Position numbers and translations under genes: made by a program
Notes under the pieces: model-generated
What the model saw: the letters and a program-made list of their open reading frames with translations, nothing else
What the model was told of the DNA's origin: nothing
Databases searched by the model: none
NCBI GenBank assembly: GCA_039621445.1
Contig: CP154954.1
Location: 13,014,716-13,078,715 of the forward strand
Reading direction: 5' to 3'
Source: Euglena gracilis
Lineage: Eukaryota
DNA length: 64,000 bases
In this document: piece after piece, positions 17,430 through 54,680 of the stretch
How positions within the stretch are numbered: the stretch's first letter is position 1
Layout of the letters: every line of letters begins with the position of its first letter

Positions 17430-18340
17430 GGGCACCAGGCGAGGCGCCCCCTCCGCCCCCGGGGGAGGGGGTCCAAGACTAAAAAAACCCCTGGGCTGGA
17501 CATTGAGTGCGTAGGTTGGGGGAATTGCATCCCTGGGGTCTGGGCGAGCCCTTTTCTGTTTTGAGTTGAGTTTTGAATTTTGTGTCACCGGGGTGCAGAA
17601 TGCCACCCTCTGCCTCCGGCGGAGGGGGGGTAGGGGGGGTGGGCAGGGTTCGATATAAGGAGGGCGTACATGGTTTAGGTGGGGGGGGGGTGTCCCTGCC
17701 CTCCCCCCCCCCCCTCCTGTCCCGCAGGGGGGGGTCCGGACCCCCCCCCCCCCCACCTGCAAGGGGGGTCCGGACCGACCCTCGGGGGCAAAAATTGACC
17801 CCCCCCAAAAAGGGTCAATTTTTTCCTCCGGCGCTTCGCGCCGAAAATTTTTTGCATTTTTGGCACATTTTTGCCCAAAAAGTGCCCAAAATGGCACTTT
17901 TGGTCGTTTTGTGGGGTCAAAAATTTTCGGCCCGGCGCTTCGCGCCGGGCCGAAAATTCGGCCACCCTGACCGCGCACCTGTTTAGGTGGGGGGGGGGTG
18001 TCCCCCCCCACCCCCCCCCCCTCCTGGCCCGCAGGGGGGGGGTCCCGGCCACCCCCCCCCCCACCTGTCCTTATATCGAACCCTGGGGGTGGGTCCCTTG
18101 TACCCCCCTCCCACCCCCCCGGGGGGGTGGGGGTAGGGGCTGGTGGGTATCTTTTTCGGCGCCGAAGGCGCCGAAAATTTTGAAAAAGGTGCTATTTTTA
18201 GCATTTTCGGGCAAAAATGGGTGGGTCCCCCGGGACCCCCCCCCTCCCCTGGGGGGGCACCCTGGGGGTGGGTGGGTGTGCCGACCCCTTACCCCCCCCC
18301 CCCCCTCCCCCCCGGTCTTAAAAAAACCCCTGGTCCAGCC
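17430..18340. mobile_element. Outer hAT-like MITE whose left end has been inverted
   Basis: Right end AAAAAACCCCTG|GTCCAGCC (TSD 18333-18340). At 17481-17501, AAAAAAACCCCTG|GGCTGGAC is the reverse complement of the expected GTCCAGCC|CAGGGGTTTTTTT left end. Confidence 0.75.
17644..18085. mobile_element. hAT-like MITE (442 bp), 8-bp TSD
   Basis: TIR CAGGGTTCGATATAAGGA / TCCTTATATCGAACCCTG; TSD GGGGTGGG at 17636-17643 and 18086-18093. Short relative at 47127-47273. Confidence 0.9.
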
Positions 18341-27787: not shown

Positions 27788-28060
27788 AGAATGCGCACCT
27801 GCGCATTCATTCCCATTGGGATGAATGCGTAGGTGCCAGGTTTTTTTTTTCGTGAGTCCGGCCTAGCCCCTGCCCCCGCCCCCCAGGGTGCCCCCAGGGG
27901 GGAGTGGGGTAAACTTTTCGATTTTAAAACGTATTTTAAAACGTGCTATTTTTCGCGATTTTTTCCATTTTGGGGTGAATTGAGTGGGTCCCCGGGACCC
28001 CCCCCCCCGGGGGACCTCCCCCCCCCAGTCTTAAAAAATCCACCGGTAGGTGCGCATTCT
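27788..28060. mobile_element. Small hairpin element interrupted by a 209-bp hAT-like MITE (27837-28045)
   Basis: TSD GTAGGTGC at 27829-27836 and 28046-28053. Removing the insert restores the hairpin AGAATGCGCACCTGCGCATTCAT...ATGAATGCGTAGGTGCGCATTCT. Confidence 0.85.
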
Positions 28061-34803: not shown

Positions 34804-34825
34804 TCTCTCTCTCTCTCTCTCTCTC
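34725..34825. repeat. Compound (TG)n-(TA)n-(TC)n microsatellite
   Basis: Direct inspection. Confidence 0.95.
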
Positions 34826-35003
34826 ATTCATGTACCATTTTTTCACCATTTGGGTTTCGTCTAGCTTTTCCGAGGTGTGCATCCGTGCTGGGGGGCCCCT
34901 TCATGGATTCCGCACGGCTTTCACGCCACCCCCGGACCCTGACCCCAGGGACCCAGAGATGCCACCGCCGGCCAGCCCCCCACCCCCCCTCCCAGTGTAC
35001 ATC

Positions 35004-35438
35004 TCAGCCTGGTGGTGGGTTTTGGGGACCTCGGCCACATAGTCGTCGGGCTCCGTTGCGTCGTACGCGCCCCGTTTTCCATCTGGTTGAGCTCTTGCTG
35101 CATTTTTTTTGCGGCGCTCGTTGTGGCTCCTGCGGTGCTTCTGGAGGTCTTTTCGGCCGCTCTTTGTGGTGTTTGCCACCCCTTGTTATGGAGTTGGCTC
35201 TACTGGCCTCCTGGTTGTCTTTGCTGCCATTGCTGGTGGCCGGCTTTTTCCTGCTTTGCCGCATCTTTCTCCTCCATTTCTCTCTTTTGGGCTCGTTGCC
35301 CCCCCTTGGATTGGCTTTCTTACACCTGTGCGGGGGTGGTCCGGGGTTCTTGGCTTCACTGATGCGTGACCAGTCATACTGGTCTTGGCTTCTGCTTCTG
35401 AGGACGGATGCTTCGTTCCTTCGTCCCGTTTGGTCCAC
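35004..35438 (-). mobile_element. Possible N-terminal fragment of a non-LTR retrotransposon ORF with a 2A-like RISEAKNPGP motif
   Basis: The 144-aa ORF contains RISEAKNPGP (35366-35337) followed by a basic low-complexity tract; no endonuclease or RT follows. Confidence 0.45.
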
Positions 35439-35689
35439 GCAAGGATTGCCGAGCGTGCTGTGCCTACTGGGCTAATCTTAAATATTTTTATATCTGTATC
35501 CACAGCCTGCCTGGGAGGGCTGGCTGCTGGATGGCTGGTTGGACTCCCCGAGGGTGGGCCCCTCCGGCTCTTGCATACACTACCCCACTGGCACTGTTTG
35601 TTCATTCGTTTTGCAGTTGTAGTTGGTCCGTTTGCTATATCAGTGTCGTTCCACCCAGCAGGAACAGCGAAGCGGCCTGCCGATGATAA

Positions 35690-35810
35690 CCAGTCTCCGC
35701 CTTCTCATTACGCCTTTGGTTCCCATGTCACACCTCTGCCAATTGCGACCCATTTGTTTGTTCATGACCCCTATTCTTTCAACTGTCCCTGGTTTAATGC
35801 CAAAAGAATT
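35690..35810 (+). CDS. Coding fragment containing FVHDPYSF
   Basis: Same octapeptide as 55696-55719, with four differences, all at third codon positions. Exon limits unknown. Confidence 0.4.
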
Positions 35811-36534
35811 CCTCATTTTCTTTTCAGAGGAGCCTTGGAGGCACAATCAACATTTTCTTTCAAAGGATTTTGCAATTGCTGTTTTCCAGCATCCCCCACC
35901 CAAGCAGCAGTTTCTGATCTGATTTTGGCTTGCTGGACCCCCTGGGTCTGAAACAGCTGGAGAATCAGCGCCTGGTTCAGTGATGGCTCAGTTCATTTGA
36001 TAAAATAATGAGAAACATGTTTATAAAAGTTTTATTATGGCCCACCCACCCACCCACGACCCCCACACTCAAAAAAGTTTGGCCAGCTCTTTTCCTTTTC
36101 TAAATCTTTTTATGGCCAGTTGCTGGTCCTTAGAACAACTTTAAGTGCATGTTGTAATTGTTATACCATTAAGTTCATTATTCTTTTGCAAGCTGTTTAG
36201 TGTCTGCTTTTTGTACTTTTGTTTGTTATTTTCCAAAAAAAATGAATTTAAATTCAATGTATTCAGTGTCTTTTTTTAGGTTCGCTTGCAATAGTTTTAT
36301 CACGTTGATCCCAGGGATTGTGCCAATGGACCCCATGCCATTTGCTGACACCTCCCATCATCTTCCTCCCAGCCTGAGAATGGACCGCGAAGTCAAACCC
36401 TTGTGTAATCAGAGAGTTTTGTCACCAAAGATATTGGTTGAGGTACGGATAGTTTTATCAAATCAAATGAAAAAATGTATTATACAATGGATAATTTCCT
36501 ACCCAATTTGAGGTTGTACACCGGATATTACAGC

Positions 36535-36951
36535 CAGGGGTTTAATCCAGCCACCAGCCCAAATTCGGGCTGGGAGCCCCCCCGGGGGGGGGGGGGGGCG
36601 TCGATTGAAATAAAGTTGGGTCCAGCCCGGCCGGAGGCCGGGCCAGCCTGCTGCAGACTGGCCAGCCAAATGGGCTGCCCAGCTCACCTATCCCTCCATT
36701 TTTTCAGTAATTAGGCTGTTCCTCCAGTCCCGATCCAGCCTTGATCTAGCTCCATCCTTCAAAATGTCGAAAATAGCAATTTTTTTCAGAAATTTTTGTT
36801 TTTTGTCGACCCGGCCCAGCCCAGCCCCCTCCAGCCCCGGACCCCCCCTATTCTCCCGGGGGGGGGGGTCCAGCCAGCAGCTCATTTCCAGCCAGCAGCC
36901 TTTTTGCCAGCCGGAGGCTGGACCCCGGGGGGCTCTTTAAGTAAACCCCTG
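36535..36951. mobile_element. hAT-like MITE (417 bp), 8-bp TSD
   Basis: TIR CAGGGGTTTA / TAAACCCCTG; TSD ATTACAGC / ATTACCGC. Inverted relative at 52956-53403. Confidence 0.85.
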
Positions 36952-38393
36952 ATTACCGCCGACATGCACAATTGTTGGACCCGGCCGGACATTATCGTTT
37001 GCCACCGCCGGGCAGGAAATGGGAGAATGGAGGATATCTCTATAGGGCCCCCCACGATATGAATAGTCGAACCTCTGACCCATGAAATTTTGGCCCCGAT
37101 GGACAAGTTTGCAGGGAAACCTGTCTGAAACAATCTGAACCAAGGAACTTAAAATTACATAGCAGATGCTAAGATTCAAATGAAATTGGTCTCGAGTCTG
37201 CATACTGATCATGCAAGATCATTTTGCGTCTTCCACCCAAAAGGTTGGGCAAAGCTGGCTCTCAAAATTTCACAACTGTGGGAGGCGAAGGAATCTTCCA
37301 ACGGCTGCTTCTAAGCTGTTCCTCGCTGTCTCGCACTGGAATGTCATTAATTTACACAGATGGCCACATTTTGCAGAAGCTTCCCAATTTTTTATCTGAC
37401 AACAGTTCTAGGGTAACAATAAAAACCTGTTCTAGTTTTCTCTGACAGCAAAGCCAGGGTACAAGCAACCTCTTCTCAAACCATTCCTAAATTTTGGGCT
37501 GGAAAAAAAGCAGCTTTGCGATCACTGCGCATCATGCAAGCACGAGGCATTGTGACGGCTATGTGACGGGACGCACTGTTTTCAAAAATATTTGAGACAA
37601 GTGGTGGGTGGACAATTTGGCACCCACGCACCCACTGCTGGAAAGGGCGGGCTGTTGAGGCCAACATGGCTTTGACCTTTACATTCCAGTGGTTGGTCAT
37701 TCCCATGTTTTCCCTTCCACATCACAGCCTCGGTAGCCATACAGCCACCGTACCACCGTACCACCGTACCAGCCACCATACAGATCACCGAAGTTCCATT
37801 TTGTCAACCGGGAAAAGCTGCTTTTTTCGGCAAGAATGTTTGTGCAGAGAGTGGTCCAGTGCTCCATTGGTGTGTTTCTGATGATGGGGGCTTTTGGTGA
37901 GCGTGCATTCAAGAAACCAATCGGCAGCACAACAGGAACTAACGTTTTACACAAGACACCTGTGTAGCTGGGACGGCAGCGGCGAGTGCATTTGACTGTT
38001 TGATGGGGCTTCCAAGGCAGCTAACGCAGCGTTGGACACAGAAGGCTAATCAGAAATTGAACACTGCCTGGAGTATCCCATGATTTACCAAACATATGTG
38101 TGTTTCTGTAGTCGATTTTGTATGTTGTTTAGTCGATGTATATGTGTGTTTCTGTAGTCGATTTTGTACATTTTCACAAATCATGTAAGTTGAAGACTTT
38201 CTGAAAATGAAGATTTGTTGAAATGGGTTCAAGAGGGTACGCAAGACGAGATTATGTGCAACAACCTCCCTCTCTTTTGGTCCGATACGAGGGATGATGC
38301 GAGGGATCTTTTTGGATATGTTGGCTCTATAAATCTGTATATATTATCACAACAAAATGCTTGAAAATTTCAATATAACGAGGAAAAAGGGTA

Positions 38394-38800
38394 CCCCCCC
38401 CCCGGGCAATTGTCACCCCTGGCTGTGCCGGCGAATTTGTCACCCCGGGAAATTGTCACCCCCCTCCTCACTGCCCCACAGTATTGCACTGTGTACTTTC
38501 TTTTCGCCAACACGACTCGATTGATGTTCTATGTTGCTACAACGTGCTGAGAGCTTTCGCATACCAAATGCTCTGCACAATATCACGACCATAGCTGCAT
38601 TTTTGCTGCGTTTTTCAGATGGTGTTCTTGGTCATTTGGTTTAAATGTGGCTTTCATGGGTGGCCAATTGACGCCCCTGGGCAATTACGCCCGCGGGCAA
38701 TTGTCACCCCCCTCTGTGCCGGCCAAATTGTCACCCCGGGAAATTGCCACCCCCCTCCGTGCTGCCCAATTTGTCGCGCGACAATTGCCCAGGGGGTGGG
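38394..38800. mobile_element. TA-TSD MITE (407 bp)
   Basis: TIR C(n)GGGCAATTGTC / GACAATTGCCCAGGGGGTGGG flanked by TA; empty site GAAAGGGTA-ACCTATTACTCAAAAT at ~6223-6248. Confidence 0.88.
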
Positions 38801-40241
38801 TAATAGTTACTCAAAATACATAAAAGTGACGTGAATTTTTAAAGCAGCTTGACATTATGCAAGCTTGCAACAAATGGCCAATTTGCATTGGCACTCGATT
38901 CGGCTTCACTGGTCCTGAACCTTTACACCTTTACACCTTTACACCTGACCATTTTCAGAATTCATTTTCATTCCACCTTAGTTATTTTATATGCTGTAGG
39001 AAGAGAACACTTTCTTCCTTCCCTCCTCATTTGTCGCACTGCGGCCACCTTGACCGTGCCATGTCTTTGCCTGTGGTAACAGAGGGTGCTTTGTTTGTGG
39101 GTGTCTGTGCAGTGTTGACTGAACTGCACTCCAACCCTCCCCTCCACTGGTGAGAGTGCGATCAAAAACTGCTTTTTTTCTTGTTTGACTCCCTGTTTGT
39201 GTCTTGAGGTGCTTTCCCCCCCCCATGTGTAATGAACCCACTTGCCCAATGAACAGGGAGTCCGGACTTCCAGTTTGTCAGCTTTTATAGCAATGCAAAT
39301 GCCCATACACTCACACTCAAAGAATTTACCCAATTGGAAACTCTCTAGATTTCATTTTGACGTCCATTCGGCCTGGGTAGGGGGGAGGTATATGAAATAA
39401 AATTGCACAGTGAAAAACAACTTGTGTTTTATGGATTCCAGAGCATTTCGCATTCCCCATTGGAAAATTGTCAACCAACGATGGTGGGTCAGGCGTGAAC
39501 CGTCACTGCTTGATGGGACAAGATGCCGGAAGATTTGGCACAATGCAGCTTTCGCGGCATGCGCCTTTCCAACCCATCGTGGAACCATGGCAACCTGCTG
39601 AAGCGTACCCCACCGGCTGCATCATTAGCTGAACACTGGTTGCAGTCTATTTTATTTGAGTTGGATTGGACATTGCGATGGTCCATCTGAATGAGAACTT
39701 AACCTGCAGCAACCCCCCCCCCAATATATTCTGCTCCTGCAAATTTCTATTTTGGTTGGTTTTTAAACAAAATATTGGGGGAAGTCAAATTTATCTGGGT
39801 GACCCATGCAAAATTTGTTGTGCATTCTTATTTCCCCCAATAATGCGCATTTTTTGTCCAAGATGGACGTTTTCTGGTGAAAATGGTTATATATACCCAT
39901 CCGATAAGCTTTCTATTTTCTTCTGAATGGCACCATTGGCGGGCTATACGTTTGGGGTGAATGGGGGTTTTTGCAATATTTTTGCGTACAATTTCCTGAA
40001 TTTCTGGGACAAGGAGGGGGTTGGCTTTCAGAATTTGAAATAGTGAGTTTGACTGATTCCATCAACCAATCGCCCCCGCCGACACCCAATTGTACAGCTT
40101 CCCACGCTTTTCCCTGCTTCGAGCCCAGGCTTCTTCGGTTGTTCTGAAATGCTGAATCGGTGTAAGGAGAATGAGGGGCAAGTACCCGAGAGGGGAGTAC
40201 CAAGTTCAAAAACTACGACAAGTGCGCAAAAGTGACCCAGC

Positions 40242-40702
40242 CAGGCATTTGCTTAAGGGATTGCAGTACCCGCCCGGGGGGGGGGCTGGACTGCAGCTAG
40301 TCCAAATTTGGCTAGTGGGTTTTCTAGCAGACCCCCCCCCCGGGGGGGTCAGACCCCCCCCGGGGGGGTCTGCTAGCAGGGCTAGCTAGTGGAAAAATTT
40401 TTCCAGTGACCGGCGCGAAGCGCCGAAAATTTTTTTTGGGACCCCCAAAAATGGCCAAAAATACCCGTTTTTGGCCATTTTTGGGAATTTTTGGAACAAA
40501 ATCAGCCAAAAACCTGTTAAAAACCTCATTTTTTCCTCTGGCGCGCAGAGCCGGAGGAAAAAAAATTTTCCAGTCCGGGGGACCCCCGGACCCCCCCCCC
40601 CCCCGGGGGGGGGAGGGGGGTCTAGCTAGTCCATTTTTTCCAGTGTCTAGCCGATTGGCTAGCCAGTACCCCCCCCCCGGGGGGTCCTTAAGCAAATGCC
40701 TG
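40242..40702. mobile_element. hAT-like MITE (461 bp), 8-bp TSD
   Basis: TIR CAGGCATTTGCTTAAGG / CCTTAAGCAAATGCCTG; TSD GACCCAGC at 40234-40241 and 40703-40710. Confidence 0.92.
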
Positions 40703-41482
40703 GACCCAGCGGCTTGATTTCAAACCTAACTGACAAATTGATATTGACCACCCCCAACGTTAGTCCTTATGCGCATGGCCGCCGTTGTTGTTAACACGCA
40801 AAAATGGCCCCCCTGAGGTTGGCCCCCCGGCTTTACCTTCAATCATGGCCTGGGCCAAGTGCCTGGGGGGGGGGGGGTGAGTGGGATCCAGGTCGAAGCT
40901 CGGCATGTTTCGGAGAGAACTGAATTCACCAGAAGCCTCGTAGTCTGTTTCCGAAGAAGTCTCTCCCCATTCCTTTGGGAGTCGCTCCACGGAAGCAAGC
41001 ACCTCTGATGATGCAGGGCGATGCTGGGCGATGCTGGGCGATGCTGGATTTTTGGAGACCAGAGGTGGGGTTCCGATGCTGGGCGATGCTGGGCGATGCT
41101 GGGCGATGCTGGCATATTTTTGTATATTTTGGAGAATTGAACCATTTTTGGGATAATTTTCCCACAAAGCTCCAGTTTGACACCCATTTTGGCCATTATG
41201 GGTCAATTTTTGCTAATTTGGAGGCTATTTATCACTGATTTGGCAAACATTGGGCTAATTGGGGCCTTTTTGAGCAGATTTTATGGCATTTTTGGCCATT
41301 TTGCGCCTTTTTGGTGATTTTGGGTCAGTTTTCACAATCTTTTGTGGACATTGTTGGCGTTTTTGGGCAATTTTTGATTATTTTGGTTGCTTTTTGGGGC
41401 TTTTTGTGGTCAATTTTGGGCGTTTTGTGACCAATTTTTGGGCTTTTGTGATTATTTTGGCTTGGTCAGGAGCCAACGGATG

Positions 41483-41790
41483 AATACTGGACAGATACTG
41501 GACAAGATGCCGATGCTGGACAAGATGCAGATTCTGGACAAGATGCAGATACTGGACAAGATGCCGATGCTAGACAAGATGAACTGGATGCAGACATTGG
41601 ACAACATGCAGATGGTGGACAAGATGCAGTTGCTGGACAAGAAGCAGATGCTGGACAAGATGCAGATACTAGACAAGATGCAGATACTGGACAAGATGCA
41701 GATGGACAAGATGCAGATGCTGGACAAGATGCAGATGCTGTTCAAGAAGCAGATGGTGGACAAGATGCAGGATGCAACGGATGCAGATGG
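41483..41790 (+). repeat. 18-bp minisatellite (CTGGACAAGATGCAGATR)n
   Basis: Tandem units translating as LDKMQ(I/M); lies inside 40996-42674. Confidence 0.92.
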
Positions 41791-42054
41791 ACAACACAAT
41801 CGACTGGTCGGATACAGCCACACTTTGCCGTGTCTTTCCTTGGTTGTGCTGTTTTAACCTCTGAACACGTACACTCGCCGCAGATCCAGCCTGGTCTGGG
41901 CAGGGTGTTGGGTCGACACCCCGTTGCTGTTGCAGGGGTACCACCCTCCACCCTCCAGCACAACTGTTTTGGATTTTGTTTGTCTAACCGGCAAGAGGCT
42001 TGCAACTTGCACTCGATGTTGCCATCTCACAGGCCTGCACCACATCCTGTGCCG

Positions 42055-42530
42055 GCAAAAAGTAGCAAAAGTGGTCAAAAAGTGGTCAAAAAGCAGGCAG
42101 AAGTGGGGTAAAAGTGGTCAGAAAGCAGCAAAAGTGGGCAAAAAAAGGTGAAAGTGATCAAAAAGCAGCAACAAGGCCAAAAGTAGGCAAAAAGTAGCAA
42201 ACGTGGGCAAAAGTGGTCGAAAAGCAACAAAAGTTGTCAAAAGTGGTCAAAGAGCAGGCAAAAGGGGTCAAAAGTGGTCAAAAAGCAGCAAAAGTGATCA
42301 AAAAGCTGCAAAAGGTGGTTGGAAATGGGCAAAAGTGGGCAAAAAGCAGCAAAAGTGGTCAAGAAGCAGTCAAAATTGGTCAAAAGGCAGCAAATGTGGC
42401 AAAAGTGGTCAAAAAGCAGTCAAAAGTGGTCAAAGTGGGCAAAAAGTAGTCAAAAGTGGTCAAAGTGGTCAAAAAGCAACCAAAGATGGCCAAAAGTAGC
42501 CAAAAGTGGGCTAGAGCGGCAAAAGTAGCA
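42055..42530 (+). repeat. Degenerate ~10-bp satellite (AAAAGTGGTC/AAAAGCAGC)
   Basis: Direct inspection; similar A/T-tract-phased arrays on the opposite strand at 3110-3500, 25050-25310 and 41140-41460. Confidence 0.85.
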
Positions 42531-45500
42531 GGCATTACAGGTACACGTTCAAGGGCTCCAAAGGCGATGCTGGGCGATGCTGGGCGATGCTGAGCGATGC
42601 TGGGCGATGCTGGGCGATGCTGGGCGATGCTGGGCGATGCTGGGCCGAAGGGCATGGCTGACCAGAGGTGCTTGCACGGAAGCTGTGCGACAAGCTTGCT
42701 ACCATTGAGGTGTGGAAGCGGCACAAGCTGCAGGGAATCCTATTCGGTGGTTGCCTACATGGGCTGTTGACCATACCTGCCTTTGTTTCCTCAGTTGGAA
42801 TCAACCTGTATGTAAGCACCTAAAGTTAAAATGGCCTAAAATGGCCGAAAAAGTCTTTTTTGACCTCTACAGGTGGGGGTCCCTTAAATGACCTAAAATG
42901 GCATAAAATGGTCTGAAATGGCTAAAAATGCCCTAAAATTGGAAAATTCTATTGCACAAGATTTCCTTTCTGCAGACAAATTGAAGCCATCATGTGATGA
43001 TTTGTGTGTGTGTGTGTGTGTGGATGACAACCGGTGGCTTTGGTGGACGATGGATGACAACCTGCCTCTCTGACAAACAAACATATTTAAGGCCTAAAAT
43101 GGACAAAAATGGTCCAAAATGGCCCAAAATAAAAACAATTTTTGAACAACCACCCATAGATTAAAATGGCCTCCAACGTGCTTAATAAACCAATGGCAAC
43201 TAAAATGGCAAATTTTTTGGCTTGATTATTGTTCTTTTCTGGTATGCCTTTGGTCCACAATTTTGCTGCCTGAAGTTCCCTGCAGATGCCCGTCAGTTAG
43301 TTTCACAGGGTTTATGTCCAATAGTTTTCATCAAATGTACAGGAGTTCATTGACCACGATGATAATCTCTCTCGGTCCTCCCTTGGACGTTGGCCCATCC
43401 AACCAGAGGAAGTTGTGAGGTTTGTGTGCTCCGCCACATTTTTCGACCTGCAGCATGTGTGTTTTTCCCCCAGCGGCACATTCCCCATTAACAGTGACCA
43501 TTTCAGTGAAAGCATGCATGCATTGCAAATGTTTGCGGTGAAGCACCTGCCCCCCCATCCGGGCGCTTGCCCCCCCCGGCCCGGGCACTTGGCCCCCCTC
43601 CTCCTTACATGCAAACTTGGCCTCCCTAAAGTTGGCCCTAGGCCTTTTGTACACGGCCGCCAAAACTCTTAAAATGCAAGTTTGGCCCCCCTAAGGTTGG
43701 TCCCCTCGCCTTACCTTCAATCATGGCACGGGCCAAGTGCCCGGGGGGGGGGAGTATGAAATGACTGGGCAGGACAGGGTAACTAAAGGGCGTGACTGGC
43801 TTTGATGACAGTCATAGGTGGGGTTCCGTGCGTAGGCTCATTCCGTGACCCAAGAGGGAAACGTCAACGAATGAATTGTCCACAAAAAGGGGGAAGGGGA
43901 GTGGCAGGGGTCAGTGGAGCAGGATGTGGGGAAGGTCTGGCTGGTGCTGGCTGGAGACCCGGCCCGCTTCAGCGGAGAAAGATGGGCAAAAAAAAGAACT
44001 AAGCCCTCATAAATCCTGCTTTTGACCGCTTATTTCCCAAGTTTCAAAAGGAAAACCACCCAGCCCAGCGAGCCCCATTTTTTTTCCGGCCCCAGGAGGG
44101 GGGTCGGAAGTTTGGCTGGGAGCTGCTCCATGGGAGGGATCAAGACGTCATTCTCACAAGCCATGCCATATGGTTGCGAACATTTGGCGCCTCCACAGGC
44201 AAATGTTACCCCCACCCCCCCGACACCCCTATGCCCCCATCCCCACATCCCTCACCGAAGGCCATTGTGGTTCCATTATTTTTCTGAGCGAAATGGCAAA
44301 ATGATTGAAATTTTGGCTGTGCACAGACAGCATTCTCCCAAAAAAGGTCACTGGAATCGTGGGAATTCGCCTGCGACACGTCCCACGGGCGGGCTCCCTC
44401 CAGCACATTTGATGGTTCAGCGAGGTCAAGCCAACTTCCCCGCAAGGGTCGTCGGGGCCGATTCAGCCCGGAGTCCATCCTACGGCAGGCTGGGAAGGAG
44501 AATTCATTCAACCAGCCAACACTTTTTTCCCAGTCGGGGAAACCAGAGCAGGTCCTTTACTCACCTTTGAGCGTGTTATCAGTTGTTTCATCAACAACTG
44601 ACTTTTTTGCAATTATTTGGGAGCCATAATGTGTGCTCGTCTTCTTCATCTTCCGCTGGGCATACCCTGTGGGGTGGTTCCACTTTTCACTTTCAGGATT
44701 TGTACTGGAACACCTCGAAACATGTGTAAACGTGAGGAAGTGTTTTGTTTTCTTGAGCACCCCAAAGGTTCTTGTTCCAATACTCGGGAAGTCGTCAGTT
44801 GTATGAACCGGTGTTTCCCCATGGAAAGGTAATTGCAAGCAACAGAGTTATGTGAAGAAAATCTTGGAAAGGCCGCCATGGAGGCCTTTCAAACCCACCA
44901 CGTGGGAACGTGTTTTCGGCCATGGTGTGCCAGAGCTGAAACACAAAGAAGTTCATGGAGATGGCATTTTGCCCCCGCCCGGCACCGTGTCGTTATCCGT
45001 GTCGGGTGTGCCCCAGAACGGCTCGTGCAACAGGTTGACGCTAAAAAAGAAGTAAAACAATTTGGAATATGACAAAAAAAAGTCACCAAAAATAAGAACA
45101 ACGACAAAAAAATAACTCAAATGAACAGACAGAAATATGTAGATAGAACGGCATTGTGCAAACCATAAAAATATGACATAATTGAAATAATATAACAAAG
45201 TTAAGCAAAATAAAAATAAATAAAGTAGAACAGGCAGTACCTGGGAGCATAATTTGTGTTGCATCTTCTTTGAAGTTCTGGGCGCACCCCATTCTTGTCG
45301 GCTGGTTCCACTTTTCACATTAAGGACCACCTCCAATTGTCTAGCACATTTGGAATTGTGTGTGAATCTGAAGCAGTATTTTCTGACGGATCCCAAAGGG
45401 GAGTCCAGCCCTCCGCTCATCCGCTGCAAAGGTGCTGGCTGGACCCCCCCCCCGCCCTTTTTCAGCTGAAAGATTAAGGTAGTAACACCCACCCCCAAAA

Positions 45501-46249
45501 CACCCGCTTTTGACCATGTTTTGGCCTCCTGAGGTGGTCAGACAGATGCCCCAAAGGAGTGGGGGTGTCGGTTTGTCTCTCCTCCTCCGCCGCGGGGCCC
45601 ACACAGTCGGACACCCCCTCGTTTGGTGCGGGGCCCCGGTGCATGCGCCAGCCCCTCGCTCGCCCCCGCAGGCGTGCTGCATTCCGCCTCGGTCGCCTCC
45701 ATCCACAGGATGGGACGCACCGCTGGTTTGCCCAGGCGTGGGGATGCCATTTTCCAGAAATAGACCACCGAAGCTGAGGACCAGCCTCGGTCCGTGTCGC
45801 GGATTTGGTCTCCCCTTCTTGACCCTGGGTTTCACCTCGCATTTTTCCTTTTGACAATCAACAGGAAGATGGAGGTGTGCATTGTTCGTTTGTTACCTAT
45901 TCGACCACAGAGTCCCCCCCACCAGGCTTAGGGTTAGGACAGTTTATTGCAATATAATTTGCGGTTACAAGACGCTGTTCTTCAAACTCGCTTTTGTGTT
46001 GGTTGTTTATTTTGGCAAGGTTTTGTTCTGTGTGTGTGTGTGTGTGTAGGTGGGTGGGTGGGTGGGTGGGTGGGTGGGTGGGTGCGTCGTTTTTGAGAAG
46101 TTTGCTTAAACATGATTTCCATTCAATAGAATTTCCTGATTTGGGACCCAATTTTCAGCCAAAACCTTGTTATGTTTCTTTGTTGTTGTTTTTTGCTAAA
46201 TTTTTTTGCCAGAAATCGAAATTTTCAAATCCTTCTGTTCCCGATAATA

Positions 46250-46351
46250 CCCCCCCCCCTTTGTCGTTGACACGGCGTGTCGTTGGCACACCCCCCGTGT
46301 CAACGACACTTTTCTGGAACATTGGCATGCCAACGACAAGGGGGGGGGAGG
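46250..46351. mobile_element. TA-TSD MITE (102 bp)
   Basis: ATAA-TA[C(n)TTTGTCGTTG...CAACGACAAG(n)AGG]TA-CAAACGTTC versus the empty site ATAA-TA-CAAACGTTC at ~19795-19809. Confidence 0.92.
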
Positions 46352-47126
46352 TACAAACGTTCTATGTCTTGACGATTTCATAAACAGGACTTTTCTTTAT
46401 GTGGCTCTAACGTTCAGTCTGGAACCAAATTTCTGTATAATTTCCTAACTGACGCATCTCGTTTCTACAACAATTCATGTCATTTTGTAAATTTCCTGCT
46501 GCCCAAATCCCCACCCCAATGGGAAGGGACGGAAGTGCTTCTTTTGCATTTCCAACTCAAGCGAATTTGTACTGTTTGATTTTTTTTGCAAATGAAAATG
46601 TTGGAAATGTCGCGTTTGGCGTCCCGTTCTCCGCCGCCGCTGTCGGTCCACCCTGGCGGTCTCTCCCTCCCGCCGTCGTGCCTCTGCCACTTAGCCGGGA
46701 CACTCCCCCCACTGGTCTTTACCGCCAGTGCTGACTGCACCTCCAGCTCGCCGGGCCTTCCACACTCGCTCAGCCACCGCGCTTCGCGCATTGTCGGGTG
46801 ACAAAGAGACCTTTCCTCCCCTGGACTGACCCCGCATCGAAAGGCATGCAGGACAACCGTTCACACGTGTCTCTCTTTTGCTCTTTTCCAAGAGGAGGCA
46901 TTATTATTTTAATCCATTTTTTTCCTCGAGATTTTAAGGAGTTTTCAGGCATTCCAAGGTTTTTTAAGGAGCTATTTTCTGCCCTTTCAGCTGTTTCCCC
47001 GCTAATAAAATACAACCCCAGAAGGACAAAATACATGTTTATGGGCGCAAATGCGTGCACAAACAAAATTATGTTGGTGCGCGCATTTGCATCCATAAAC
47101 ACGTTTTTTACCTTCAAGGTTGGGCT

Positions 47127-47273
47127 CAGGGTTTGATATAAGCAGGGCGTACATGGTTTAGGTGGGGGGGTGTCCCCCCACCCCCCCCCCTCCTGGCTGC
47201 TATGCTCCTATGCTCCTGGCCCGCAGGGGGGTCCGGACCACCCCCCCCCCACCTGTCCTTATATCGAACCCTG
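47127..47273. mobile_element. hAT-like MITE (147 bp), 8-bp TSD
   Basis: TIR CAGGGTTTGATATAAG / CTTATATCGAACCCTG; TSD GTTGGGCT at 47119-47126 and 47274-47281. Confidence 0.92.
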
Positions 47274-47919
47274 GTTGGGCTTCTTCTTCCGGGTTCTTTG
47301 CAATCAAACTGGTTGTGCAGGTCCCGGGTATAAGTTGGGTGGGAGACACCCGTCCCTTTCTTCCCCTCTGAGCATCCCTTGCCAAACACCCAGTAAACCC
47401 ACCAAATTATGTTTCTGGATAGTGGCTGGTCCGCGCCGTCACAGCCCATTTGTCACGCCGTTTATCGACAGTGTCAGTTCATGAAGTCAGGTCAGTTCAG
47501 TGAGGTGTGTTTGGGTTGTTTGTTAAAGCGCGGGGAGGAGGTGCGGGGGTGTGTGGGTGTGGTATGATCAAGCTGGCGGGAACAACTGTCACACTGTTTG
47601 TCAACAGTGTAGTTCATTGGCGCTAAACCATGCTCAAACAAAACATTGGCTTGTGCGCGCAAATGCACGCACCAACAGAAGTTGTTCTGAATGGTCGAAA
47701 TGGTATGACAAAACAAACGACAGTATCATGGTTCAGGTGCACTAAAGCACGCATCATGCTGTTGGGGGGCACGAATGCGCAAATGAACCTCATACAGAAA
47801 TTCCAGAATTTCAAAGGTTGCGCATTTGCGCATTTGCGCACACCAACGACGTGACACGCGCTTTAGAGCAAACGAACCACCTATGTAGGAATAAAAAATT
47901 TGGCCCTGCAATAACCCAC

Positions 47920-48003
47920 CGTCTCTGGCTTCTGAAGGTGTTCAACCTCGACGACCGCACCGTCTCCTCCAACTCCTTGTATTTTGGGGGCCATTTCTCC
48001 TCT
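47920..48003 (-). CDS. Candidate isolated 84-nt exon (EEKWPPKYKELEETVRSSRLNTFRSQR)
   Basis: GC3-biased codons; upstream CTG-TGAGT|A nonconventional-type 3' boundary and downstream CG|GTGGGT donor. The antisense frame is also open, so the strand is uncertain. Confidence 0.35.
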
Positions 48004-50074
48004 ACTCACAGGTCCCAGGAAAGGTTGAGATAGAGGATCTGAAGATAACGGAGCACGCCCACCGGCACGTTGCCCCACAACTGGTGTGAGACGGGGCGAT
48101 GGGTGCCAGCCCTGAAAGCCCGTCTTTTGGGTTAAAGTTCAACCTCTACCACTCGATTGGTTGCATGAGATTGCATGAGATCGGTGGGATTTTCCCAGCA
48201 CAAATCATGCACAGAAACTGGTGTGTTTTACGTTTTACAGGAGAAAAAACGAGGAGTGGTGGAGAATACCGGAAACTGATGCCGGCCCAACCCGTCCCGG
48301 GAATTTCAAGTACCAAAATTTGAATTCTTGTAATTCAGTATTATTACAGAAAAAACGTCTGACAGTAACAGGTCGTTTGCACGTCACCAATTTGTTACGC
48401 TTATCTGCCAAACGGATGACGCCAAAACGACCGACTGTGCGGGGAAGCAGTGCAAATGTTCACACGTAAGGCAGGCAAATTTTCGCCCGTCAGATGCCGT
48501 GTTCAAGTGAACATTACACAACACCTCTCACCACAAAATTCATCACGTAAAAGTGATGCAATTCAAGGGTTGGCGTGCCGAATTGCGTTCGCCAGCTGTC
48601 ACCGACGAGGAGATGGTATCGCACAACCGATGAGTGTCATGGTCCTCATCAGTGTGCTTTTCCATGGACATGCTATTCGTTTCCACCCATGCATAAACCA
48701 TCTACATACCAGTTTCCCCAAGAGGTTGGTGCGCGCATTTGCGCACACAAACAAAATTTGTTTGTTGCCTCATTTGCGCCCACAAACATGTCATTTCAAC
48801 GTCAACGTTTTGTGCTGTGTGCGCGCAAATGCGCCCACAAACACACATCACTTGCGTGACAGCTGGGCTGACGTAGTCTGTAGTACGTGATGTAATAAGG
48901 CTCCGCGTTTCTTTACAAGCGGCTGTAGTACCCAAGCCAGTTCAGTCAGCACATCAGCACCAGTACCAATTGTCATAACAGCGGGTGTGTGCTTCTCACC
49001 TGTTTGGCATACAAGAACACCAGTCTCACCCTCCGCCCTCTTTGCGTCACTCGGCAAGTAACTTGCATACAAAACCACCCGGAGTTTGCAACCCTTCAAC
49101 ATAGGGTCGCAACTGTTCATAAGCCGTTCTCTGTGAGTCAGGTTACAGGGTTCCATATTTTTTGCAGAATTTGTAAATTTCCGCAAATGCGCGGATTTCA
49201 AAAGAAAAAACCCTTAAGTGCGAATTCGGCCGCCTAAGTGGCTCGTTTTTAGGGAGATTTTGTGGTTCGATTTTTGTTTGGTCGGAGAGAATTCTGCCAG
49301 TCCAAAATTTTAAGGCATTATGAGGCATTTTAAGAGATTTTAAGCCCTGAAATATAAACAACCAGTCATTTATATTTGTTTTTCCAAAAGGTTGCCTGTG
49401 TCAGGGACGCATTTCCCAAAATATTGCCATGTTTTGAACGGGGCTGTTTCCCTTGCTAGTTTTGGGGAGCGTGCCTCTCCACTGAACCACCCCCCCCCAC
49501 TCTCCCCCCCCTCCTCCATACATGCATGCTTGCCCCAAAATTGGACCCTCGGCTATAAGTTGTGCTTTTCGCACCGTATTTTAACATTTTGGCTTTTTCT
49601 GTGCAAAATTCTCAACATTCATCCCCCGGCCTTCCCTTCATTTGTGCCCGGGCAAAGCGCCGGGTGGGGGTGCGAATAAAACACTTCAATTTTGACAAGA
49701 GGGGAGTGTATCTCTTTACAGCTCTCAGCCTGGCCATGATTCAGGAGGTATATGCAAGTTGAATAATTTGCATTTTTTGCATAATCCAAAATCTTAAATT
49801 TTTGCATTTTTTTGCATCATAATACACAATTGCATATTAACAGTAATTTGCATAGTGACACATAAGTGGATGCAATTGGGCAAACCAGCCACGTTATTTT
49901 ACAAATTCACATCACGTTTTTTTTTGGTGTGGCGGTTTTTTCGGTGTTCATTCATTTTTTTGAGAGTATTGTGCTTTTTTGTGTGTGTCCTGACAGAGTA
50001 AAGTGCAAATATATATATTTGCGCACATCAATCACCCAAAGCTGCCAGCAATGTTCGTGGGGACAGGGTCTAGC

Positions 50075-52088
50075 CAGGGGCAGGGAGATATTCCAGTCCG
50101 GAATCAACCAGAATAAACCGGAATAGCGAAAACCGGAATAAACCGGAATAAACTGGAATAACCGGAATAAAAGTGCCAGCCAATGGCTTGAAAATTCTGC
50201 AAGGCACAAAGACAATGAAGGTGAAGTTTGATATATTTTTAGGTTTCAAAATCGCGAGGGCAACAAAGCAGCGCAAGCGTAGCACAGTCGACACGTGATA
50301 TCAGGAGCACACCTTCATTTTGCCTGTTTTTACCCCTAGTTGAATGTATTTTTTGTTTGGATTTTATCCCCACTTGTGGAGCTGCACTTAGTGAATGTTT
50401 GTCCCTGAGTTCTTTTTAAAGGGACATGAACTAGGACAACATCAACGCCGATTTTTGGGGGCAGGCATACCATTGGACAAAGTGAATCATCTTTCAAACA
50501 GGGGGTAATAACACTCTTAGGCGGCCTAACTCGCATTTAAGGTTTTGATATTTGCATTGCGCTTAAGCGCAACGTTGCATTCTTTTCGAAACCCTGCGGT
50601 GAAACCCACCCTTTTGGCCCTCGGGTTCTGTGGGGGGCCCTCCACGGTGGCACGTACATCATTTGCGGTTATTCTGACCCAGGAAACAGGCCTTTTTTGT
50701 GTTTTTAAGCCTGTGATCCATTTTGAAAAAGGTTCAAAATCCAGGTTTGAACGCCTGGACACGTGAACAGCAACACTGGCCTGATGCGCACTTTTTGAAA
50801 GTGTAAAATTGCGTCGATGCGAAATCTTGCAAAAAGGTTCTGTTATCGAACACCGAGGTGTGAGACAGTCCGAATTAGTGTCTCCCTACCCCCAGGGCTT
50901 GTGGACGAAAATAACGACTTGGATCTCTACAGTGTACAGGCACAGGGCTCCCCAGGCCCAGTGTGCATAACCCCAAAGCGCCAGGTACTGAAACAAGGGA
51001 ACTCCATTGTGCAGTTGCACCATGGCAGAAAAGATTTTTTCATTACAAAAGTGAAAAACATTGCGCTTTGGCGGAACGTTTTTTTTTTTTTGCATTTCCA
51101 AATGTGGGGAATCGCAATCAGGCTGTATTTTAGTCGGGTGCCGACCCCACCCCGCGCGGGGTGGGTGCCTGACTGGGCAGGCACTCCAAGGCACTCCCGA
51201 TCCGACCCCCCCCCAGGGGGGGGTAGGGCACACGGCCAAAAGTACCCTAGCACAAGAGCCAAAAATGGCTTATTTTCAAAGGAACGTGCCTGGGCACAGG
51301 CCATCCGACCCCGGGGGGGGGGGGGGTAGTGCCTGCCTGGGCAGGCACTCATAGGCACTCCAGACCCCCCCCGGGGTTGGTAAAAAACTGCCTGATCGCA
51401 ATAATAACAAAATATGCGTCAATGTGTGTTTTCATTGTGTGTTCGCAAGGAAAACACGCTCATGTAGAATGAAATTTTATAAGTTATATTGCGCCACGGC
51501 GCAACAGAAATACAATTTTTTCCTTCAAAATTTGCATGGCTGTTGCGCCGAAGCGGACACCTCAGCAGGTAAACCTTCATGGACAGATTGCAGAGCCTAA
51601 AACAGCAACAAAACGGACCAAAAGTCACCTGGCCTGTGTAGCACCATCTGGAGAACACAGTCAAGGCTTCTAAAATGAGGGAGACACAGCAGGGCCTAAG
51701 ACACCCAGCGTTGTCCCTTCCTGTTTCCTTCCTGTTTTTGGGAAGGAAACAGATAGCGGTGCCAGGGACCCGCCTCAAGAGAAAACCCCGAGCACCAATT
51801 TTCATTGTTTGTCCTGGAAAGGCCGGGGTCTGCTGTGGTGTGCAAACCCGCATCACCGCAAAGTGACCACTTGGCGGGGTGGGGCAACCAAAGAATGCAT
51901 CTCTATTCTTGAAGCCCGGGTGAGTGCCTCGGCCCAATTGTATTTCAAATAATACTAAGTCCATTCAGACAGAAATTGACCGGAATAAACCGGAATAAAT
52001 CCCGGAATAACCCGGAATAACCCGGAATAAATTGGAATAAACCCCCGGAATAAAAATTTCGGTTGACCGGAATATCTCCCTGCCCCTG
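50075..52088. mobile_element. ~2-kb TIR element with (CCGGAATAA)n subterminal repeats
   Basis: 20-bp TIR CAGGGGCAGGGAGATATTCC / GGAATATCTCCCTGCCCCTG; flanking repeat GTCTAGC (7 bp); absent at paralogous ~22110-22125. Confidence 0.9.
51119..51394. mobile_element. hAT-like MITE (276 bp), 8-bp TSD, nested in 50075-52088
   Basis: Ends CAGGCTGTATTTTA / TAAAAAACTGCCTG; TSD ATCGCAAT at 51111-51118 and 51395-51402. Confidence 0.9.
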
Positions 52089-52955
52089 GTCTAGCACCAG
52101 AGGAAAACGGGAAATAATACCACAGTTTCATCACATTCATTTTCCTGCTCCAAACACACTGAAGTTCTTGGTTGGCTGTAAATTGGTCAGTGTGCTCAAC
52201 TGCACACATCGTCCATATATGCAAGTGCACACACCGACATCATTTTTGCTGTTTTGTGGGTGTCAAGAGATTGAAAATTGGTGGTATTGTAATAGACAAT
52301 GTATAAGACATAGACAGCCAATGAACTCAACTGGTAACTGGTGGCAGTTCTCCTGCGTCTTCTTCACCTCATCAACCACCAGTTGCAGATTTCTCTAACA
52401 GCCTATTTGTACCTATTTTATGTGTTGAATGTTAGAAACCCTTCAACGCAATCTGCGGACAGACCCGGCAAAAATAAGTTCGTGTGCCAGACACCAAAAG
52501 GGACATACAACTATGTAATGATGAAAGGTTGTACAAACAACAACAGGTATTTTTGGGCTCGCCGTTATTTATCTAATTTAATAATCTAATTCAAATATTA
52601 TGTAACTCTTCTTAACATGTGCGCACACCATCACAAAATTTTGATATAATTTTTGTTTTGGAGGGCTGGGCTCAGGTTTTTGAGCTGTCTGTGACACACC
52701 ATCTCTTTTTTCATTGATGTCCACAAGCGTCCAGCGGTGACAGCTGGGAGAATGGCGCAAATTTTGAAAGTTTGAATGTCGCAGAGGTGACATTTGACAG
52801 GGAAATTTGGGTCCGGGCCCAAATGCGGGGGGTCCAACCCCCTCCCCTCTGTCAACAACTGGGCCCTCCGCCCCCGGGAAGTCAAAGGCTGCCACACACA
52901 CACAGACACACACACACACACACACACACAACACACACACACACACACACACACA

Positions 52956-53403
52956 CAGGGATTTTCTTAAGGACCCCCCGGGGGGGGGGTCCAGCCTCCG
53001 GCTGGCAAAAGGCTGCTGGCTGGAAATGAGCTGCTGGCTGGACCCCCCCCCCGGGGGGGATGGAGGGGGGTCTGGAGCTGGCTGGGCTGGGCTGGGTCGA
53101 TCAAAACCAAAATTTTCTAACATTTTTTTTGCTGTTTTCGACATTTTGATGGATGGATCTGGATCAAGGCCGTGATGGAGGAAGCTGTAATGAGGGGAAA
53201 ATATGCGGGGATAGGTGAGCTTGGCAGCCCAGTTGGCTGGCCAGCCTGCGGCCGGCTGGCCCGGCCTCCAGGACCCAATCACCCGACCCCCCCCGGGGGG
53301 GGGGGGCCTCCCAGCCCCAATTTGGGCTGCTGTCTGGATTTGAGCTGCTGGCTGGCTGGACCCCCCCCAGGGGGATGGGGTGTCCTCCGGCTTAAGAAAA
53401 CCC
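52956..53403. mobile_element. MITE of the 36535-36951 family (inverted), inserted in a (CA)n tract
   Basis: Ends CAGGGATTTTCTTAAG / CTTAAGAAAACCC; 52987-53045 is the reverse complement of ~36865-36925; (CA)n at 52893-52956 and 53404-53505. Confidence 0.8.
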
Positions 53404-53449
53404 ACAACCACACAACCACATACACACACACACACACACGAACACACAC

Positions 53450-53508
<59 letters not shown>

Positions 53509-54529: not shown

Positions 54530-54680
54530 TGGGTCACAGTTAGGGGATAGGGTTTGGATTCGAATTTGGAAATGTTTGGGTTTGGTGCATTCGGAACTGG
54601 ATTGGGATAGTGTTAGAATTTGAACGTTGAGGATAGGGATAGTGTTCAGGTGGGCACAGGGCCACGTCGATGAACAGGAT
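54530..54680 (+). repeat. Degenerate TTAGGG-like hexamer array near the right end of copy 2
   Basis: TTAGGG, ATAGGG, TTTGGA, TTTGGG and ATAGTG units; the reverse strand translates as PNSNPNPIP. Confidence 0.65.

What the first reader, a model, noticed from the sequence alone, without database searches (positions are those of the whole stretch)
40234..40710. CAG...CTG elements with 8-bp TSDs have the exact geometry of euglenid nonconventional introns (potential intron-generating MITEs)
Seen: at least six elements start with CAG, end with CTG (one mutated to CCG) and carry 8-bp TSDs: 17644-18085, 27837-28045, 36535-36951, 40242-40702, 47127-47273, 51119-51394. Established: euglenid nonconventional introns typically pair CAG at +4..+6 with CTG at -8..-6 and have pyrimidine|purine junctions; 8-bp TSDs are typical of hAT elements. 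Inference: 3 nt before CAG plus 5 nt after CTG equals 8 nt, exactly one TSD, so splicing would restore the pre-insertion mRNA seamlessly. Examples: GACCC|AGC-CAGG...CCTG-GACCC|AGC, ATCGC|AAT and GGGGT|GGG all give Y|R junctions. Some TSDs (GTAGGTGC, GTCCAGCC) do not fit, and the sample is too small to claim target bias. A MITE-intron link has been suggested before; this window gives clean examples of the arithmetic.
Basis: partly seen in the sequence, partly recalled or inferred. Interest (0 to 1): 0.8.

Follow-up and report, generated by a model that had tools for sequence, protein, structure and literature searches.

The report
Transposons shaped like Euglena introns
Several small jumping-DNA elements here are real, and their ends and 8-base flanking duplications fit the published cutting rule for Euglena's odd introns, but in this stretch they lie in silent, gene-free DNA and none is shown to act as an intron.

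Summary
Five CAG...CTG elements have 10-18-nt terminal inverted repeats and 8-bp target-site duplications (four perfect, one 7/8). A sixth has a perfect duplication but poor repeats. Fifty decoy geometries gave 0.02 hits on average against 5. They are miniature non-autonomous DNA transposons of an 8-bp-duplication superfamily, most likely hAT. P is a live rival.

It matches the Euglena nonconventional splicing code shown by experiment in 2025: 3 nt + CAG ... CTG + 5 nt + purine. Passages I read add support. A recently gained E. agilis intron has eight-nucleotide junction repeats. The conserved R-A-C at the start of downstream exons corresponds to positions 6-8 of the hobo/Hermes target motif.

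Nothing here shows splicing:
- 424 of 456 ORFs carry no Pfam domain.
- RNA reads laid on 34810-52800 are sparse and about 92% run on into unlike sequence, so they come from other repeat copies.
- No read joint removes an element.
- The organism is coded and could not be named.

MITE origin of these introns has been in print since 2013. The 8 = 3+5 link to a superfamily was not found in the library searched. Verdict: real ordinary MITEs, a good testable idea, untested here.

The parts
40234..40241 (.). left target-site duplication GACCCAGC of the focal element
40242..40702 (.). focal MITE, 461 bp, with a 17-nt perfect TIR CAGGCATTTGCTTAAGG. The interior is made of nested C-run/G-run and A-run/T-run palindromes.
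   Evidence: RNA fold of 40239-40707 gives -289.2 kcal/mol, z -14.45. Summed contig depth in run X15 is 1601.7 in this bin, against 0-15.4 in the seven bins 43210-46809.
40703..40710 (.). right target-site duplication GACCCAGC
17644..18085 (.). MITE, 442 bp, TIR CAGGGTTCGATATAAGGA (18 nt), TSD GGGGTGGG on both sides
47127..47273 (.). MITE, 147 bp, of the same family as 17644 with an internal deletion. TSD GTTGGGCT. It lies at a non-corresponding place of the paralogous segment, so it is an independent insertion.
   Evidence: An X15 contig diverges exactly after 47273 (table 5c).
51119..51394 (.). MITE, 276 bp, ends CAGGCTGTATTTT / CAGGCAGTTTTTT, TSD ATCGCAAT
   Evidence: RNA reads with unlike flanks stop exactly before 51119: 19 reads in X21, 17 in X22, 2 contigs in X15 (table 7).
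36535..36951 (.). MITE, 417 bp, TIR CAGGGGTTTA (10 nt), TSD ATTACAGC/ATTACCGC (7 of 8)
   Evidence: The empty site in the paralog is only weakly alignable.
27837..28045 (.). probable degenerate member, 209 bp. It reads CAG...CCG on +, which is CGG...CTG on -. TSD GTAGGTGC is perfect and the TIRs are poor.
52956..53400 (.). further degenerate copy of the 36535 family (82% over 298 nt, inverted), inserted in a (CA)n array. The left end is CAGGGATTTTCTTAAGG and the right tip is eroded.
40996..42674 (.). 1679-bp non-autonomous element with CAAG...CTTG tips, a perfect 12-nt TIR and TSD CACGGAAG. Internal 18-mer and 10/20-mer tandem arrays. It is not a CAG element but has the same 8-bp TSD class.
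   Evidence: The paralog near 14944-14954 carries one copy, CCCGGAAG, and runs straight on, so it is a clean empty site.

Best explanation
These are miniature inverted-repeat transposable elements: short, non-coding, non-autonomous cut-and-paste DNA transposons. They form a few related families that share CAGG tips, a T-rich stretch, TTAAGG and a C-run/G-run palindrome.

A transposase encoded elsewhere in the genome binds the terminal inverted repeats and inserts the element across a staggered 8-bp cut. Repair of that cut leaves the 8-bp duplication. The superfamily is most likely hAT (inferred, about 0.6). P is second and Merlin is unlikely.

The copies in this window are recent insertions into old, diverged, gene-free repeat DNA, and they are not acting as introns here. 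Because the tips are CAG/CTG and the duplication is 8 = 3+5 bp, any such copy transcribed in a Euglena-type cell would meet the published nonconventional splicing code in either orientation and would be removed without a scar. That last step is inference. It is not shown here.
For: Shown here:
- TIRs plus 8-bp TSDs are far beyond chance: 5 hits against a decoy mean of 0.02, with a TSD-length control.
- One 8-bp-TSD element has a clean empty site in the paralogous segment.
- Two members of one family sit at non-corresponding places with different TSDs.
- Repeat boundaries seen in reads and contigs coincide with element tips at 51119, 40996 and 47273.
- Summed contig depth is far higher over the elements than over the neighbouring sequence (table 2).
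- There is no coding capacity: 0 of 424 ORFs reach a Pfam cut-off.
- No unique RNA cover: 433 of 453, 292 of 303 and 509 of 531 laid reads are only partly on the stretch.

Fit to the splicing code:
- The CAG/CTG pair sits at +4/-8 in the MFE fold for 5 of 6 elements.
- The code itself is in PMC12501133 (passages).

Literature in line with descent:
- An eight-nucleotide direct repeat at a recently gained gapC intron (PMC4770533).
- 129,984 of 157,875 CAG-CTG introns are slidable, meaning they carry junction repeats (Dataset S7).
- Downstream exons start with a purine in 55 of 55, A in 43 of 55 and C in 30 of 55. Compare hobo GTNCGNAC and Hermes nTnnnnAn.
- All 5 of 5 natural introns used as cassettes start CAGG after the 3-nt spacer, although CAGG to CAGT did not hurt splicing.
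Against: - No transposase is in the window, so the superfamily is not proven. CAGGC tips and the seven TSDs fit the nTnnnnAn motif poorly: T at position 2 in 4 of 7, A at position 7 in 2 of 7.
- An empty site could be shown for only 1 element, and that one is the CAAG element, not a CAG element. For 40242, 17644, 47127 and 51119 the paralog is not alignable across the site. For 36535 the alignment is weak.
- RNA reads that cross element tips with unlike flanks show that some copies elsewhere are retained in RNA. That neither supports nor excludes splicing.
Confidence: 0.8

Rival explanations
1. One reading: the genome is a euglenid's, these families are the still-mobile source of nonconventional introns, and copies that land in exons are cut out 3 nt before CAG and 5 nt after CTG (TSD position 5|6), which restores the mRNA.
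For: - The arithmetic and code match.
- Eight-nucleotide junction repeats occur at a newly gained intron.
- The R-A-C exon start matches positions 6-8 of hAT target motifs.
- 82% of CAG-CTG introns carry junction repeats.
- The 17644-family tip shares its first 8 nt with E. agilis intron EaNC-INT1. The 51119 right tip shares its first 9 nt with EaNC-INT3 (compared by eye, post hoc, suggestive only).
- Contig sets of the DNA runs are 984-2274 million letters, against published Euglena assemblies of 1.54 and about 2.4 Gb.
- Gene-free, repeat-rich DNA without transposon protein remnants fits the published E. gracilis repeat make-up.
Against: - No copy here lies in a recognisable gene.
- The organism was not identified.
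- The geometry is generic to CAG-tipped 8-bp-TSD elements.
- The purine rule at the exon start is met by only 4 of 6 copies on each strand.
- The tested natural introns are 50-100 nt, while these elements are 147-461 nt with extreme palindromes.
Confidence: 0.3
2. The elements belong to another 8-bp-TSD superfamily (P, or Merlin), not hAT.
For: - P elements make 8-bp TSDs with target motif GTCCGGAC (PMC3276498 Table 4).
- A CA-type terminal motif is quoted for the P superfamily in PMC2820524.
- Two Merlin families with 8-bp TSDs are reported in E. gracilis (PMC8101967).
Against: - Merlin tips are 5'-GG, whereas these start CA.
- No THAP, P or IS1595 transposase domain is in the window.
- As I recall, hAT is much the commoner source of CAG-tipped MITEs. 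No call here tested that.
Confidence: 0.2
3. The organism is not a euglenid, and the likeness to nonconventional introns is only the generic signature of this transposon class.
For: - The name is coded.
- There is no rRNA, tRNA, snRNA or protein marker in the window.
- 14 DNA runs each hold at least half of the sampled words, which would also suit a commonly sequenced animal or plant.
Against: - CpG observed/expected of 0.63 is not vertebrate-like (the vertebrate value is recalled).
- There are no reverse-transcriptase or transposase remnants in 64 kb.
- The tips match Euglena introns.
Confidence: 0.35
4. The repeats are chance or recombination products, not mobile elements.
For: Relaxed criteria give as many decoy hits as true ones: 7 against 1-9.
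Against: - Strict criteria give 5 against 0.02.
- A clean empty site exists for the CAAG element.
- Read and contig boundaries fall at the tips.
Confidence: 0.02

Closest known systems
hAT-superfamily MITEs (non-autonomous relatives of hobo/Ac/Hermes-type elements)
   Same: 8-bp TSD, short TIRs with CAG tips, subterminal repeated motifs (GTCCAGCC 17 times), no coding capacity, high copy number
   Different: No transposase or autonomous partner was seen. The interiors are unusually extreme nested C-run/G-run palindromes. The TSDs do not clearly follow nTnnnnAn (n = 7).
Euglenid nonconventional introns (PMC4770533, PMC12501133)
   Same: CAG/CTG that pair with each other, 3-nt and 5-nt offsets that sum to the TSD length, ends brought together by a stem, CAGG start as in 5 of 5 tested natural introns
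   Different: They are not in genes here and no RNA junction was seen. They are longer and far more structured than the tested introns. The purine at the exon start is met in only 4 of 6 per strand.
Introner elements of Micromonas, Aureococcus, Polarella and Amoebophrya (reviewed in PMC11282704)
   Same: MITE-like transposons whose TIR/TSD supply or restore splice signals, so that insertion creates an intron
   Different: Those have 3-5-nt TSDs and are removed by the (modified) spliceosome at GT/GC-AG-type sites. Here the cut would be set by TIR pairing and fixed offsets.
Merlin elements of Euglena gracilis (PMC8101967)
   Same: 8-bp TSD, near-perfect TIRs, reported in a euglenid
   Different: Merlin tips are GG...CC. 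The CAG elements do not have them, although other palindromic elements in the window (7024-7314, 59821-60056, about 60424-61160) do start GGCAAG.
P-superfamily elements
   Same: 8-bp TSD and CA-type tips
   Different: No THAP/P transposase was seen, and I do not recall a report of P elements in euglenids (not searched for).

Membership tests
MITE (non-autonomous TIR transposon) | terminal inverted repeats flanked by a fixed-length direct duplication | tested here: met
   5 elements at the true geometry against a mean of 0.02 in 50 decoys. Sequences.
MITE (non-autonomous TIR transposon) | short, non-coding, multi-copy | tested here: met
   147-461 bp. No Pfam domain was found, but ORFs across the 17644 element were among the 32 not scanned. 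There are two or three members per family in the window. Summed contig depth is far above the neighbouring sequence.
MITE (non-autonomous TIR transposon) | empty site with a single copy of the duplicated target | tested here: inconclusive
   Clean for the 1679-bp CAAG element. Not alignable for 40242, 17644, 47127 and 51119. Weak for 36535.
hAT superfamily | 8-bp target-site duplication | tested here: met
   5 perfect and one 7 of 8 among the six, plus the CAAG element.
hAT superfamily | transposase with hAT dimerisation and BED domains, or an autonomous partner with the same tips | tested here: not met
   0 of 424 scanned ORFs. The rest of the genome is not available.
hAT superfamily | target preference nTnnnnAn / GTNCGNAC | tested here: inconclusive
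   T at position 2 in 4 of 7 TSDs and A at position 7 in 2 of 7. The sample is too small.
hAT superfamily | CA-type terminal motif | tested here: met
   11 of 12 tips start CAGG. I recall the consensus as belonging to hAT, while PMC2820524 quotes it for P, so this feature does not discriminate.
Merlin superfamily | terminal 5'-GG ... CC-3' | tested here: not met
   Tips are CA...TG and lie directly next to the TSD.
Euglenid nonconventional intron | lies between exons of a transcribed gene | tested here: not met
   No domain-bearing ORF. On 34810-52800 RNA depth is mostly below 2 per strand and 92-93% of what was laid runs on unlike.
Euglenid nonconventional intron | CAG at +4..+6 pairing with CTG at -8..-6 | tested here: met
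   When written with 3 nt and 5 nt of TSD, 5 of 6 elements pair this way in the MFE fold. 27837 has the CGG-CTG variant on the minus strand. This holds by construction for any such element.
Euglenid nonconventional intron | purine as first base of the downstream exon | tested here: inconclusive
   4 of 6 on the plus strand and 4 of 6 on the minus strand.
Euglenid nonconventional intron | removed from RNA (junction reads or circles) | tested here: not met
   No joint removing an element and no end-to-start back-joint appear among the 15 listed joints; 3 more were not shown. Power is very low at this depth.
Euglenid nonconventional intron | host is a euglenid or diplonemid | not testable with these tools
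   The organism is coded, no whole genome is held, and there are no marker genes.

The most novel reading that the evidence does not exclude
Euglenid nonconventional introns are insertions of one class of 8-bp-TSD transposon (hAT-like). The splicing machinery reads the paired transposon tips and cuts at offsets of 3 and 5 nt, which together equal the transposase's 8-nt target stagger. On this reading every new insertion, in either orientation, is born as a scarlessly removable intron.

This would also explain three things at once: why both junctions share the same Y|R pair, why most such introns are 'slidable', and why downstream exons begin R-A-C (the tail of the hAT target motif).

The families in this window would then be the free, still-mobile source population that workers in 2013 said had not been found.
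Probability: 0.3. Interest if true: 0.85.

Novelty: new member of a known kind. Interest (0 to 1): 0.5.

Why it matters
The origin and removal mechanism of euglenid nonconventional introns have been open since the 1990s. In E. agilis they are 71.8% of 649,158 junctions (PMC12501133).

A MITE origin has been proposed since 2013, but no transposon family or superfamily has been named. If the window is euglenid, it supplies concrete intergenic families with the predicted tips and the predicted 8-bp duplication.

That makes the idea directly testable genome-wide:
- by family clustering of the annotated introns,
- by the length distribution of junction repeats,
- by the target-motif logo,
- by presence/absence alleles,
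- by the published knock-in assay.

As it stands, the window itself shows only ordinary MITEs in silent DNA.

Tried and rejected
- Whole genome: none held.
- tRNA and Rfam scans: 0 hits.
- Pfam: 424 of 456 ORFs of 70 aa or more were scanned. I left out 32 ORFs that lie in TA/TG microsatellites (6.4-7.6, 13.15-13.5 and 59.3-60.4 kb) or across the 17644 element. Only two sub-threshold hits came back: Zip at 16.5 bits against a cut-off of 35.1, in an ORF encoded by (CA)n, and DUF6480 at 20.4 against 25. Exons shorter than 70 aa would be missed.
- The look-up of sequencing runs: no RNA holder listed. The organism is coded.
- Read laying: no support for splicing. No joint removes an element. The 'goes back 335' joint (36878 to 36544) and the skips at 39606-40073 and 40121-40969 carry other letters between the sides or also stand in the contig run X15. 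I read them as differences between repeat copies, not splicing or circles.
- Metagenome scan with the 17-nt TIR: 46 loci, each with a single match. 0 of 46 extend beyond 22 nt of likeness to any element, so these are chance matches.
- Protein Atlas with the ORF across the 17644 element: best score 0.76, meaningless.
- Trinucleotide-only test of CAG...CTG plus an 8-mer repeat: swamped by satellites (CAG 8, TAT 35). Not used.
- Relaxed TIR/TSD scan: 7 hits against 1-9 in decoys, so no further elements are claimed.
- The repeat finder for inverted repeats: dominated by the TA microsatellite.
- Empty sites for five CAG elements: none clean.
- The SI Appendix PDF of PMC12501133, which holds the sliding-distance figure, cannot be read here.
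Full report
THE OBSERVATION

The focal element is exactly as described. GACCCAGC lies at 40234-40241 and again at 40703-40710. Between the two copies is a 461-bp element that begins CAGG and ends CCTG, with a perfect 17-nt terminal inverted repeat.

The other five claimed elements are these:
- 17644-18085: perfect 8-bp duplication.
- 47127-47273: perfect 8-bp duplication.
- 51119-51394: perfect 8-bp duplication.
- 36535-36951: duplication matches at 7 of 8.
- 27837-28045: perfect duplication, but it ends CCG and its inverted repeats hardly align.

I ran two controls against chance:
- I asked for a 16-nt inverted repeat with at most 4 mismatches and flanking 8-mers with at most 1 mismatch. The true geometry gives 5 elements. 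Sliding the flanking 8-mers outward by 1 to 50 bases gives 0 in 49 cases and 1 in one case.
- Among other duplication lengths (4-7 and 9-11), CAG-started pairs number 0 or 1, against 5 at length 8.

With looser thresholds the decoys catch up, so I claim no further members by that route.

By eye and by BLAST there is one more eroded copy of the 36535 family at about 52956-53400, inside a (CA)n array. There is also a 1679-bp CAAG...CTTG element at 40996-42674 with a perfect 12-nt repeat and the 8-bp duplication CACGGAAG.

WHAT THEY ARE

The tips are related to one another: CAGG, then G or C, a T-rich run, often TTAAGG, then a C-run/G-run palindrome. A subterminal motif, GTCCAGCC, occurs 17 times in the window where 1.8 are expected.

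The elements carry no recognisable protein. Across the whole window, 424 of 456 ORFs of 70 aa or more gave no Pfam family at its curated cut-off. The 32 ORFs left out lie in microsatellites or across the 17644 element.

A self-comparison showed that the window holds two old, colinear, 77-93% identical paralogous segments, about 1-25.8 kb and 36.0-54.7 kb. This gave one clean proof of insertion. The paralog of the 40996-42674 site carries a single CCCGGAAG and runs straight on into the sequence that follows the element. For the CAG elements the paralog is too rearranged at the sites to give an empty site.

Two members of one family, 17644 and 47127, lie at non-corresponding places with different duplications. 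That means separate insertions after the segments diverged.

Reads and contigs of public runs support the same boundaries:
- Reads with unlike flanks stop exactly before 51119 (19 and 17 reads in two RNA runs).
- Reads with unlike flanks also stop exactly before 40996.
- A contig diverges just after 47273.
- Summed contig depth is 1601.7 over the focal bin, against 0-15.4 in the seven bins 43210-46809.

These are therefore multi-copy, non-autonomous cut-and-paste transposons that make 8-bp duplications.

SUPERFAMILY

An 8-bp duplication with CA-type tips fits hAT best, but not only hAT:
- P elements also make 8 bp (PMC3276498, Table 4).
- Merlin families with 8-bp duplications are reported in Euglena gracilis, though with GG tips, which these elements lack (PMC8101967 passages).
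- The terminal-motif consensus that I recall as hAT's is quoted for P in PMC2820524.

No transposase is in the window. I put hAT at about 0.6.

THE INTRON READING

- The positions +4..+6 / -8..-6 and the Y|R junctions are in PMC4770533 (passages).
- PMC12501133 (passages; Datasets S6-S9) showed by knock-in that splicing needs four things: CAG and CTG, exactly 3 nt before CAG, 5 nt (6 tolerated) after CTG, and a purine at the start of the next exon.

So 3 + 5 = 8 is a true statement about the code. An element with CAG/CTG tips and an 8-bp duplication would be removed without a scar. Written that way, 5 of 6 elements pair C4-A5-G6 with the CTG in the minimum-energy fold. The focal one folds at -289 kcal/mol, z = -14.5.

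While reading I found further published facts that the model explains, and I did not see them tied to it in those passages:
- The one intron caught as a recent gain (gapC intron 4 of E. agilis ACOI 323) has eight-nucleotide direct repeats at its junctions. The authors ascribed these to break repair.
- 129,984 of 157,875 CAG-CTG introns are 'slidable', meaning they carry junction repeats.
- Downstream exons start with a purine (55 of 55), then A (43 of 55), then C (30 of 55). Under the model these are positions 6-8 of the duplication, where hobo's target motif GTNCGNAC and Hermes' nTnnnnAn have A, or AC.
- Both junctions share the same Y|R because they are the same two duplicated positions (my inference).
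- All five natural introns used as cassettes begin CAGG after the spacer, although changing that G did not hurt splicing. Conservation beyond what splicing needs is what a transposase-binding tip would show. Two of those introns share their first 8 and 9 bases with tips in this window. That comparison was by eye and post hoc, and is no more than suggestive.

WHAT IS NOT SHOWN

- Nothing in this window ties these copies to genes or to splicing.
- On 34810-52800, which holds four of the six elements, three RNA runs gave 453, 303 and 531 laid reads out of 8-13 million read. 92-93% of what was laid runs on into unlike sequence, so the reads come from other copies of the repeats. No joint removes an element and none joins its end back to its start. 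At this depth that has almost no power.
- The organism is given only as 'organism A'. The contig sets of its DNA runs (about 1.0-2.3 billion letters), the lack of genes and of transposon protein remnants, and CpG o/e 0.63 are compatible with published Euglena genomes, but they do not identify it.
- A scan of metagenome contigs with the tip found only chance matches.

PRIOR ART

- MITE origin was proposed in 2013 (PMC3935182).
- It was repeated in 2016, 2024 and 2025.
- The 2024 review already labels CAG/CTG as 'TIR' and the junction repeats as 'TSD-like' (PMC11282704).
- In searches, and in the passages read, I found no paper that names a superfamily, links the 3- and 5-nt spacers to an 8-bp duplication, or describes free intergenic families.
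- Subscription papers, the SI PDF of the 2025 paper and the supplement of the 2016 paper (closed) were not seen and may bear on this.

VERDICT

The elements are real, ordinary MITEs.

Noticed in passing
window 1-25800 and 36000-54700: The window holds two colinear, diverged (77-93% identical) paralogous segments. This is an old segmental duplication broken up by later insertions, and it can serve as an internal empty-site reference.
   Followed up: partly
window 40996-42674: A 1679-bp non-autonomous element with CAAG/CTTG tips, an 8-bp TSD and a clean empty site in the paralog. Inside are an 18-mer array (41492-41775), 10/20-mer arrays (42056-42526) and a 10-mer array (42563-42645).
   Followed up: yes
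window 7024-7314, 59821-60056, about 60424-61160: Palindromic MITE-like elements whose tips start GGCAAG and end CTTGCC, sitting in TA-rich microsatellites. GG...CC tips are the Merlin signature quoted in PMC8101967. The duplications cannot be read in TA repeats.
   Followed up: partly
whole window: C-run followed by G-run (C5+G5+) occurs 16 times, but G-run followed by C-run only once. A4+T4+ occurs 27 times against T4+A4+ 9 times. Most of the C/G palindromes lie inside or beside the MITEs.
   Followed up: no
window 15360-15437, 23034-23110, 24334-24411: Short arrays of a 10-bp unit, AAAATGGCCT or similar. The same word recurs inside the focal MITE.
   Followed up: no
window 41855-41919: In RNA run X24, 29 molecules begin at 41855 and 177 reads leave the window sequence after 41919 with one identical continuation. 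So an abundant RNA from another copy shares about 65 nt with the inside of the 1679-bp element.
   Followed up: no
window 40122-40968: Other genomic copies of the surrounding repeat lack these 847 bases (which include the focal MITE) and have one G instead. This was seen in RNA reads and in a contig of X15, so it is a DNA difference between copies and not splicing.
   Followed up: partly
whole window: No tRNA, no Rfam family, and no Pfam domain in 424 of 456 ORFs. Tandem repeats cover about 5% of the window.
   Followed up: yes
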